The notes beneath the pieces are model-generated. The model was not told where the DNA came from. It saw only the letters and a list, made by a program, of their open reading frames with translations, and did no database searches. 64,000 nt of DNA from Eledone cirrhosa (Eukaryota): the NCBI GenBank assembly GCA_964016885.1, contig OZ024740.1, positions 299,212,001 through 299,276,000 of the forward strand, written 5' to 3'. Of this stretch, positions 10,375 through 13,272 are shown piece by piece. The position numbers were made by a program, and so were the translations under genes. Each line of letters opens with the position of its first letter. Positions within the stretch are counted from its first letter, which is position 1.

Positions 10375-10795
10375 ATTAACACTTAACATTTAATATTCTA
10401 TCAAACTATTTCATTATAATAACATTATAAATTTTAAAGGATTGTAAATAAAACGAGTAAATCAGATAAAGTTGGAATTCCTTTTATTAATATATATATA
10501 TATATGTATATATATATATATATATATATATATATATATATATATATATATATATATATATATATATATATATATATATATATATATACTTTTATTAATA
10601 TATATATATATACGTAATAATAATAAATTTGAAGATTAATATATATATATATGTATATACCTATATATATATATATATACATACATACATATATATATAT
10701 ATATATATATATATATATATTTATATATATATATATATATATATATTTATATATATATATATATATATATATATATATTTATATTTAATAAAATA

Positions 10796-10871
10796 ACAGA
10801 TTAAAGTTTAAGCAAAGAATCGCTGCTTTCACCCTTAACGGGATCTTCTGAAACTAACAAAGTCAATCTGT
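10796..10871 (-). ncRNA. Type I hammerhead with CAGAAGA core, family C
   Basis: Mirror copy of 11822-11897. Confidence 0.65.
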
Positions 10872-11821
10872 AAACGCAGAACTGGATATTTCAAAAAACG
10901 TTGCAACCGGAGGAAGACAGGAAGACGATACTTTGGTTCGTGGTAACGTTCGCTGGCAAAGAACGGGAAAAAACGAATAATACGTCATTAATAGGAGCGG
11001 TGAAAAACAATTACGCGCAAAGACAAAACCACGTTTATGGTATAAAAGAGGTCGTAGACTAATGTTCTCTTAGGTGGTGCATAGAGACGTTCTCTGGCAA
11101 TGAACGAAAAAACGAAGATAATAAGTCATATGTGGAGCGTGGAGAACAATAGCACACAAAGACAAAACCACGTAAATGGTATAGCAGAAATCGTAGACTA
11201 AAATTCTAACTAGGAGACCAAATGAATCTCCGCTACAGAGTTAAGAACAAAGTAAATAAATACAATACAGAAGTAATAGAAACAAATAAATACATACACG
11301 CGAACAGATAGGTACGTACACAAGCATACGCAAAACCTTACCATGGGTATACAAAACCACGCACATATAAATATGTGTGTGTGTGTATGCTTGTGTACAA
11401 ATAAATAAATAATTATATAAACGTATATAAGTAAATAAATACGTAAATAACAAGCGCACACGCATACCTACATATACATCTAGTTAGAATTTTAGTCTAC
11501 GATTTCTGCTATACCATTTACGTGGTTTTGTCTTTGCGTGCTATTGTTCTCCACGCTCCACATTTGACTTATTATCTTCGTTTTTTCGTTCATTGCCAGA
11601 GAACGTCTCTATGCACCACCTAAGAGAACATTAGTCTACGACCTTTTTTATACCATAAACGTGGTTTTGTCTTTGCGCGTAATTGTTTTTCACCGCTCCT
11701 ATTAATGACGTATTATTCGTTTTTTCCCGTTCTTTGCCAGCGAACGTTACCACGAACCAAAGTATCGTCTTCCTGTCTTCCTCCGGTTGCAACGTTTTTT
11801 GAAATATCCAGTTCTGCGTTT

Positions 11822-11897
11822 ACAGATTGACTTTGTTAGTTTCAGAAGATCCCGTTAAGGGTGAAAGCAGCGATTCTTTGCTTAAACTTTAATCTGT
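11822..11897 (+). ncRNA. Type I hammerhead with CAGAAGA core, family C
   Basis: acagattga ctttgtt agttt CAGAAGA t-ccc-gttaa-ggg-t GAAA gca-gcgattctt-tgc TT aaact ttaatctgt; stems I (bulged), II and III all pair. Confidence 0.65.
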
Positions 11898-13272
11898 TAT
11901 TTTAATAAATATTTGCTCTACGGTTCTTATATATTTGATATATATTTTCCTTATCGAGCCCTCTTTGGATTTTAGTCTTCAACTTTATTATTATTACTAT
12001 ATATATTTATATATATATATATATATATATATATATATATATATATTTATATATATATATATATATATATATATATATATATATATATATATATATATAT
12101 ATATATATATATATTATATATATATATATACATATTCACTTGTATATACAAACGCGCACATATGTGTAAATGTATGTTCACGCGAATTTATTTGTGAATA
12201 TGCAAAGAGACGTAGATTGAAAGAAACAATCAGAAGACAAATACGAATGTCATGACTTTTAAAAGATGGCCTCAAAAATTGTCTCAAAATGGCCGAAGAG
12301 ATGAGAATTTACCATAATGAAAATGAAAAAAAAAAAAAATTAAAACAAACAAAAGACTAAGCAAAATGTAATTTATTAGGAATCAATAATATTTATGGAA
12401 ACAAAAGTGAAAGCAGAATTTACGAAAAAATATGAAATGAAATAAAATGAATATTAATTAAAATTAAGATTTTAGCATTTTTAACTATAAGAAAAACAAC
12501 AACAACAACAACAATTATAACAAAAGAAACAATAACCACAACGAATAAATTCCGCTCCATAGATACGATCCTGATTGACTAAAAGAAATCACCGAATTGT
12601 AATAATAGGATGAAAGAGGTGGTCTTGCGAGAAATTCCATCTCTATTCTAGAGGAAATTACATTCTTGCTATAGTGTTTGAATGCGTTACGGTCGGAATT
12701 TTGAATAAGTAATATAACAATGTTATTACCTTGTTTCTTTGTTGTCCAATTCCTGCTGAAAATTCATGTATTTTCGTTGAAGTTACTAATCTCAGATTCC
12801 AAATTATTCCAAACCAGCTGTCATTTTACCAGAGATTTGTCATTAACAACAAAAATGGTCTCCCCTTATTGTTTCGTAGAGCACACATTCTATCCACTGA
12901 CAGTGGAATAGCATCCAAAACGTTAACCCTTATCCAACTGTATCAAGCGTTAAACTAATACACCACCATTTTATTATATTTTTCTCCTGAAATGTTTTAC
13001 TTTTTGAGCTTTCATACCGATACAAACAAACAAACAAACACACACACATACACACACACAGATAAATATAAGTGTGTATATATATATATATATATATATA
13101 TATATATATATATATATACATGTGTGTATATATATATATATATATATATATATATATATATATATATGTATACATATGTGTGTGTGTGTATGTATGTGTT
13201 TGTATGGGGGGGGGGGGGGGGGCATGAAAGCTAAAAAAAGTAAAACATTACAGGAGAACAATATAATATAAT

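What the first reader, a model, noticed from the sequence alone, without database searches (positions are those of the whole stretch)
10781..11925. Family C: full type I hammerhead with a fixed U4-to-A core change
All three stems and a bulged, extended stem I are present, but the core is CAGAAGA and the 10.1-11.1 position is U-U. The same CAGAAGA is read in the diverged copy near 14990 and at 4848 (minus), so it is a family trait and not private decay. It is either an active variant core or a conserved non-catalytic fold.
Basis: partly seen in the sequence, partly recalled or inferred. Interest (0 to 1): 0.7.

Follow-up and report, generated by a model that had tools for sequence, protein, structure and literature searches.

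The report
Retrotransposon hammerhead with fixed U4A core
The stretch is two back-to-back end-pieces of a very common Penelope-like jumping gene whose hammerhead-shaped RNA motif has A instead of the usual U at core position 4 in 99% of about 15,700 counted copies; it likely cuts itself only slowly, perhaps with help from the element's protein, but cutting is untested.

Summary
Largely confirmed. 10781-11998 is one inverted insertion, in (TA)n, of two 5'-truncated 3' ends of a Hydra-clade Penelope-like retrotransposon (RT plus GIY-YIG frame in long copies). Each arm holds a type I hammerhead fold with core CAGAAGA. A4 is fixed: 15,565 copies against 141 with any other base. It is also in older subfamilies. 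Between old and young majorities, stems and core are unchanged (52 of 52) while loops, bulges and position 7 change (11 of 26), but no compensatory pairs were found. Two corrections: the U-U pair is ordinary (14 of 25 published Hydra families, all with U4), and the 4848 copy is a fold-back centre that reads CTGAAGA on the other strand, so it proves nothing. A second Hydra family in this genome has fixed C4 (4,171 hits), probably independently. Published mutagenesis says CUGA changes lower activity, so a slow, perhaps protein-helped ribozyme is most likely (0.5) and a non-cutting kept fold next (0.3). Cleavage is untested; the genomic cut-site test failed its positive control. This scan noted the same family twice before, on other pieces of this genome.

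The parts
10781..11479 (-). Left arm: 5'-truncated copy (699 bp of 3' UTR/pseudo-LTR) ending at the element's short 3' end at 10781
   Evidence: 98% match to the 3' UTR of long copy L033
11480..11998 (+). Right arm: second 5'-truncated copy; 11480-11912 runs to the short 3' end, 11913 to about 11998 is the optional tail to the long 3' end
   Evidence: 99% inverted match to 10781-11213; 98% match to the tandem junction of L180 over 11809-12000
11822..11897 (+). Type I hammerhead fold with bulged, extended stem I
   Evidence: sequence; stems and core unchanged between subfamilies; not the minimum-energy fold
11843..11849 (+). Core CAGAAGA; position 4 (11844) is A instead of U
11850..11862 (+). 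U10.1, stem II (3 bp, 5-nt loop), U11.1
   Evidence: U-U common in Hydra hammerheads
11863..11883 (+). GAAA, stem III (4 bp, 9-nt loop) and CUU triplet; predicted cut after 11883 (inferred from hammerhead numbering)
10796..10871 (-). Mirror hammerhead fold of the left arm, core at 10844-10850
10946..11201 (-). Two diverged 139-nt repeats of the element's 3' UTR (mirrored at 11486-11747)
10490..10784 (.). (TA)n target, left flank
11998..12135 (.). (TA)n target, right flank
14946..15217 (-). Older, decayed copy of the same 3' end; CAGAAGA kept, stem II broken
4769..4919 (.). Fold-back hairpin copy centred on the core; reads CAGAAGA on minus and CTGAAGA on plus
15967..16026 (-). Decayed copy of an older subfamily (core eroded)
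33535..33974 (+). Internal RT fragment of the same family
   Evidence: tblastn 91% and 76% identity

Best explanation
This is the hammerhead-shaped motif at the 3' end of a very abundant Hydra-clade Penelope-like retrotransposon, with A fixed at core position 4 and a fold likely kept by selection, and it is likely a slowed ribozyme that would cut after the CUU only rarely, perhaps when the element's own protein helps it fold. Shown: the family, its RT-endonuclease frame, the 3.26-kb tandem unit with the motif about 160 nt upstream of the start codon, (TA)n flanks, two 3' ends about 29 and about 115 nt past the predicted cut, and A4 in old and young subfamilies. Inferred: the uncut RNA would be the usual template, because copies end downstream of the cut site and many run straight through it; reverse transcription would start at the two 3' ends; fold-back or template switching would give the inverted pair seen here. 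Untested: any cleavage, and any protein help.
For: Family and clade. Fixation: 15,565 A against 141 other; of the first 100 others listed 38 G, 36 T, 26 C, so U4 is about 0.3% and no commoner than other point changes. Older subfamilies: 37 of 40 listed rows whose loop III begins GAA have A4 (counted by eye); A4 invariant in 24 of 24 aligned copies, of which 6 old ones were picked without regard to the core. Constraint: majorities of 11 old and 16 young copies agree at 38 of 38 stem and 14 of 14 core-side positions, but at only 15 of 26 loop, bulge and N7 positions and 99 of 147 upstream positions (Fisher p 1e-6 and 7e-8); the one core-strand change is N7, the free position. C3-G8, G5, A6, A9, G12, A13, A14, A15.1-U16.1 and a non-G at 17 are all present. 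A second Hydra family has fixed C4 with the other core bases kept (99 of 100 listed, 4,171 hits); a viroid U4C variant is described as much slower in vitro but sufficient in vivo (Perreault 2011). The anole Poseidon hammerhead cuts only with its protein and is not needed for insertion in vitro (Frangieh 2024). The fold is 5.4 kcal/mol above the minimum, which fits a need for help.
Against: No cleavage data. In a full pairwise scan of one hammerhead every CUGA change except the C3-G8 swap gave low activity and none was rescued by a second change (eLife 2023), so activity may be nil. No compensatory pair. The constraint test compares only two lineages' majorities, the old set was found with patterns that fix parts of stem III and stem I, and the 29 nt just upstream of stem I are also well conserved (about 24 of 29), so part of the signal may be selection by pattern or conservation of DNA sequence. 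Core bases also build the fold, so keeping them does not prove catalysis.
Confidence: 0.5

Rival explanations
1. A non-cutting hammerhead: catalysis was lost with U4A, and the three-way fold is kept because the element's protein recognises it or because it positions the start of reverse transcription just downstream.
For: CUGA changes give low activity in the pairwise scan. Catalytic mutants do not affect insertion in vitro for Poseidon. Both 3' ends lie 29-115 nt past the motif. 27 of 69 start-codon-anchored copies run through the cut site. Naiads proliferate without canonical hammerheads.
Against: In both lineages with a changed core the change is at position 4, the one with a known weakly active natural variant, and G8, G12 and a cleavable base 17 are kept.
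Confidence: 0.3
2. A fully active variant: the extended, bulged stem I and loop II compensate for the lost uridine turn, and the RNA cuts at normal hammerhead rates.
For: The periphery is complete and conserved. Perreault 2011 suggests tertiary contacts offset variant cores. The family is highly successful (18,787 exact hits).
Against: The bulge and loop II are the parts that vary between subfamilies, which a strict compensating contact would not favour. The proximal stem I is weakly populated. No rescue of CUGA changes was seen among double mutants.
Confidence: 0.1
3. A neutral relic: a dead motif carried along by successful master copies, with no selection on the RNA fold; the conservation is chance or reflects a DNA element such as the pseudo-LTR promoter.
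For: No covariation. Folding z-score near zero. Neighbouring upstream sequence is also conserved.
Against: Changes between subfamilies fall in bulge, N7, loop II and loop III and skip every stem and core position between them (0 of 52 against 11 of 26); an interleaved pattern like this is not expected from drift or from a DNA motif.
Confidence: 0.08

Closest known systems
Hydra-clade Penelope-like elements and their hammerheads (Craig et al. 2021, PMC8557442; read: passages, section 11, supplement parts 1, 2 and 52)
   Same: Single frame with RT and C-terminal GIY-YIG, RW-type N-terminal motif, DKT, CxCX5C linker, CxxC and CxH around the endonuclease E and N, (TA)n targets, 3' type I hammerhead, U-U flanking stem II in 14 of 25 families.
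   Different: All 26 Hydra rows of File S2 have CTGA; this family has CAGA. It has G15.2-C16.2 with a 9-nt loop III where those have C15.2-G16.2 and short loops. The unit is 3.26 kb with a 3' UTR of about 1 kb, against 'generally <3 kb'.
Poseidon hammerhead of the green anole, PAc (Frangieh et al. 2024, PMC11167929; read: parts 1-2 of 4)
   Same: Pseudo-LTR hammerhead upstream of two 3' ends that define an optional tail; AT-rich targets; tandem organisation.
   Different: PAc has a canonical core and its frame starts inside the motif; here the start codon is about 160 nt past the predicted cut and the tail is about 85 nt rather than 30-40. Protein-assisted cutting is shown for PAc, untested here.
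Natural core variants of the hammerhead (Perreault et al. 2011, PMC3088659; read: section 8 and passages; Figure 5 not visible)
   Same: U10.1-U11.1 and a position-4 change (viroid U4C) are described in active natural ribozymes.
   Different: The text read names U4C, not U4A; those variants are rare single sequences, not the consensus of a family with some 19,000 hits.
Minimal hammerheads of metazoan Penelope-like elements (Cervera and de la Pena 2014, PMC4209133; read: parts 1-2 of 4, supplements not read)
   Same: Pseudo-LTR location, low expected activity, inverted pairs 100-700 bp apart.
   Different: Those have a minimal palindromic stem III and work as dimers; this one has a full stem III. 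The core variant reported there is U3-A8, not A4.

Membership tests
Hydra-clade Penelope-like element | Single frame with RT and C-terminal GIY-YIG endonuclease | tested here: met
   Long copies give frames with YRDD and AYIGLT; longest unbroken frame from the start codon was 641 aa (L163), no fully intact copy among those fetched. Pfam gave no hit for two frames; 567 homologues at E <= 1e-20.
Hydra-clade Penelope-like element | RWK-type motif, DKT, CxCX5C linker, CxxC and CxH motifs | tested here: met
   RWR, DKT, CNCRNRADC, CDLC and CKH read in the translations against section 11 of Craig 2021; by eye.
Hydra-clade Penelope-like element | Insertion into (TA)n; tandem or inverted 5'-truncated copies; optional tail | tested here: met
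   Flanks in window; tandem unit of 3,259 nt in L163; 15 short, 13 long and 2 other 3' ends among 30 loci.
Hydra-clade Penelope-like element | Placement in a tree with the named Hydra reference proteins | not tested
   The tree held unnamed homologues only; the published sequences were seen as text but not used.
Type I hammerhead ribozyme | Three stems around the core in type I order | tested here: met
   All pairs can form; 93.8% of cells paired in 22 distinct rows against 23-60% for slid controls, though the structure was derived from these sequences.
Type I hammerhead ribozyme | Core CUGANGA | tested here: not met
   A at position 4 in 15,565 of 15,706 counted copies.
Type I hammerhead ribozyme | GAAA, A15.1-U16.1 and a non-G base 17 | tested here: met
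Type I hammerhead ribozyme | Covariation in the stems | tested here: not met
   0 of 11 pairs with a change on both sides; covariation score below the shuffled mean. Distal stem I was left out because the alignment was out of register there.
Type I hammerhead ribozyme | Match to an Rfam hammerhead model | tested here: not met
   None among 6 matches at E <= 10; none among the 150 of 161 rows listed for the whole window, which also holds canonical-core motifs, so the test is insensitive.
Type I hammerhead ribozyme | Site-specific self-cleavage | not testable with these tools
   No RNA run was listed; the genomic end test failed its positive control.

The most novel reading that the evidence does not exclude
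A natural U4A hammerhead that still cuts at a useful rate in the cell, because the Hydra element's protein or the extended stem I stands in for the uridine turn; position 4 has been released twice in one Hydra lineage (A4 in about 19,000 hits, C4 in about 4,000), which would widen the hammerhead core to CNGANGA in retroelements and mean that CUGA-based searches miss whole families.
Probability: 0.2. Interest if true: 0.75.

Novelty: new variant of a known kind. Interest (0 to 1): 0.5.

Why it matters
What the hammerheads of Penelope-like elements do is an open question (Craig 2021 calls it unclear; Frangieh 2024 finds cutting dispensable in vitro). This family is a natural experiment: a core base thought nearly essential changed long ago, the element then spread to some 19,000 exact-match sites, and the rest of the fold stayed put. 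One cheap assay separates two useful outcomes. If it cuts, the hammerhead core is looser than the standard search patterns assume. If it does not, a hammerhead fold is being kept for a non-catalytic job in retrotransposition. The companion C4 family, with intact frames, gives a second test case in the same genome.

Tried and rejected
Genomic test for cutting (5' ends piling up at the predicted cut): 0 of 69 start-codon-anchored copies end within 3 nt of the site, where about one would be expected by chance (an earlier pass had 12 failed alignments and was redone). Junctions at the site were 14 of 30 sampled from 495 hits, against 13 of 30 from 456 hits at a control position 9 nt upstream (a few rows in each set are misclassified by the simple rule). 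But a canonical-core family in the same genome also shows no pile-up (3 of 30 sampled from 351 hits), so the test says nothing for or against activity. 'U4 subfamily': 1,050 hits with CTGA plus the family's 3' half are mostly fold-back hairpins (23 of 30 by rule), not intact U4 motifs. Sequencing runs: no RNA holder listed. Seven runs labelled as other organisms gave only 1-28 contigs at low depth; not used as evidence of distribution. Two contigs of X10 begin at 11883, one base before the predicted cut; I read this as an assembly branch 30 letters before the fork between the two 3' ends and rejected it. DNA search of the own genome was empty because common words are skipped. Metagenome pattern scan gave 4 loci, none examined further because my follow-up pattern printed nothing for them. 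Viral contigs held no relative. One search had an alignment one base out of register and a shifted structure string; it was replaced. The careful tree did not finish; only the quick tree is cited. Papers: searches listed no report of a natural U4A hammerhead (listings only); Nelson and Uhlenbeck 2008 and Lunse 2017 were not held; Perreault's Figure 5 and supplements, Cervera's supplements and the eLife per-mutant values were not seen and could hold a U4A value or example. PMC11014351, PMC6765202, PMC3376415 (passages) and bioRxiv 10.64898/2026.07.22.740005 (part 1 of 5) added nothing on position 4.

Full report
What is in the window. Positions 10781-11213 and 11480-11912 are a 433-bp inverted repeat, 99% alike, between two (TA)n runs. 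The plus arm holds a type I hammerhead layout at 11822-11897: distal stem I of 9 bp, an 8-nt and a 1-nt bulge, proximal stem I of 4 bp, core CAGAAGA, U, a 3-bp stem II, U, GAAA, a 4-bp stem III with a 9-nt loop, and CUU. The minus arm mirrors it. The fold is not unusually stable (z near 0); evaluated as drawn it has -9.7 kcal/mol against -15.1 for the minimum, with distal stem I and stem II well populated and proximal stem I at 0.05-0.08. Rfam finds no hammerhead here.

What the repeat is. An exact pattern over core, stem II and GAAA has 18,787 hits in the 3.0-Gb genome and none for the reversed control. [quoted passage not shown] RWR, DKT, CxCX5C, CxxC and CxH motifs and (TA)n targets match the Hydra clade as defined in section 11 of Craig et al. 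2021 (PMC8557442). A head-to-tail unit is 3,259 nt. In it the motif is followed by a short 3' end about 29 nt past the predicted cut, a long end about 115 nt past it, and the start codon about 160 nt past it. The window insertion is a 699-bp minus-strand copy joined head to head to a plus-strand copy of about 520 bp that carries the tail, the inverted arrangement described for these elements.

Is A4 fixed? With the 5' strand of stem I required, 15,565 hits have A and 141 have another base; among the first 100 of those 141 are 38 G, 36 T and 26 C. U4 is therefore about 0.3%, at the level of point mutation. A looser search for CTGA with the family's 3' half gives 1,050 hits, but 23 of 30 examined are fold-back hairpins centred on the core, where one strand reads CTGAAGA and the other CAGAAGA. 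The window's 4848 copy is such a hairpin and cannot count as evidence either way. Contigs of run X1, which holds the family at very high depth, list no difference at 11844 above 3%; it may be the source sample.

How old, and is the fold kept? Older subfamilies have other loops II and III, another bulge, and often U at position 7, yet keep A4: 37 of 40 such rows among the first 100 of 501 hits, and all 24 aligned copies. Their protein pieces are about 50-70% identical to the young family's, decay included. Majorities of 11 old and 16 young copies agree at 38 of 38 stem and 14 of 14 core-side positions, against 15 of 26 in loops, bulges and N7 and 99 of 147 upstream. Limits: two lineages only; the old copies were found with patterns that fix part of stems I and III; the 29 nt upstream of stem I are also well kept; and no pair shows a compensatory change (0 of 11).

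What is ordinary. The U10.1-U11.1 pair stands in 14 of the 25 Hydra families of Craig's File S2, all with CTGA, in several canonical-core motifs of this genome, and is described as known and the best tolerated mismatch in Perreault et al. 2011 (PMC3088659). A CUU triplet with G15.2-C16.2 is also used by a canonical-core family in this window. Among 19 Hydra-like loci from other records, 15 had a hammerhead by a scan that allowed any base at position 4, and all read CTGA. So A4 is the one real departure.

A second case. The same scan of my loci turned up a family with core CCGAAGA: 4,171 exact hits, C4 in 99 of the first 100, intact 832-residue Hydra-type frames in three fetched loci, 40% identical to family C. 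In the quick tree it groups (SH-aLRT 98) with a family whose motif has U4 and a stem II of about 100 nt (two copies seen), not with family C. That favours two independent changes at position 4, but the careful tree did not finish and the fork is open.

How it most likely works. U4 contacts the phosphate between A6 and N7 (Perreault). In a full pairwise scan of one hammerhead all changes in CUGA but the C3-G8 swap gave low activity (PMC9901934, passages). A viroid U4C variant is much slower in vitro yet enough in vivo. The anole Poseidon hammerhead cuts only with its protein, and its cutting is not needed for insertion in vitro (PMC11167929). Here copies end downstream of the predicted cut and 27 of 69 start-anchored copies run through it, so the template was uncut or rejoined at that site. 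Taken together I favour a slowed, perhaps protein-helped ribozyme on a mostly uncut template (0.5), then a kept fold that no longer cuts (0.3), a fully active variant (0.1) and a neutral relic (0.08). The identity of the element and the fixation of A4 are shown; every statement on cutting is inference.

Novelty. The element and a hammerhead at this place are known kinds. A family-wide U4A core did not appear in my paper searches, with the gaps listed under Tried and rejected. By the strict core definition it is not a canonical hammerhead; it is built like one and sits where its clade has one. Two earlier notes of this scan reached the same reading on other pieces of this genome; I saw them after forming mine, and they are not independent support.

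Noticed in passing
L314-L333, L353-L357 (e.g. L355:498-560 and 4687-4750): Second Hydra-clade family with a fixed U4C core (CCGAAGA), an A-G mismatch at the foot of stem II, 4,171 exact hits and intact 832-residue frames; subfamilies vary at N7, loop II, stem III and base 17.
   Followed up: partly
window 4769-4919; L103-L132: A hot spot of fold-back hairpin insertions centred on the TTC-N-GAA near-palindrome at the start of the core; roughly 800 of 1,050 hits by the sampled share. It creates a false canonical CTGAAGA on one strand.
   Followed up: partly
L001:1116-1270; L276; L127: Hydra-type family whose hammerhead has a canonical core but a stem II of about 100 nt made partly of microsatellite-like sequence; standard patterns would miss it.
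   Followed up: partly
window 30633-32150, 8226-9909, 32585-33149, 33953-34293: Another Penelope-like family with RT-GIY-YIG frame pieces and a canonical minimal hammerhead (CTGAAGA at 9640, 32023, 32994, 34099 plus; 8411, 32870 minus), triplet CUU or CUA.
   Followed up: partly
window 1245-1251 (minus), 1953-1959 (plus), 13538-13544 (plus): Further canonical-core hammerhead motifs of other repeat families, one inverted pair and one with a long stem II.
   Followed up: no
L306, 3' of the endonuclease hit (about 1700-1760, minus): Single Hydra-like copy with a hammerhead-like end whose first core strand is irregular; may be decay or another variant.
   Followed up: no
L334-L352: Hydra-type retrotransposon frames with canonical hammerheads inside bacterial genome records of marine symbionts and metagenome bins, most likely host animal DNA.
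   Followed up: partly
window 17517-20322, 46683-48079, 49558-53145, 54217-57633, 24667-26619: Decayed non-LTR retrotransposon frames (two with Pfam RVT_1 hits) and a 616-nt tandem repeat of about three copies.
   Followed up: no
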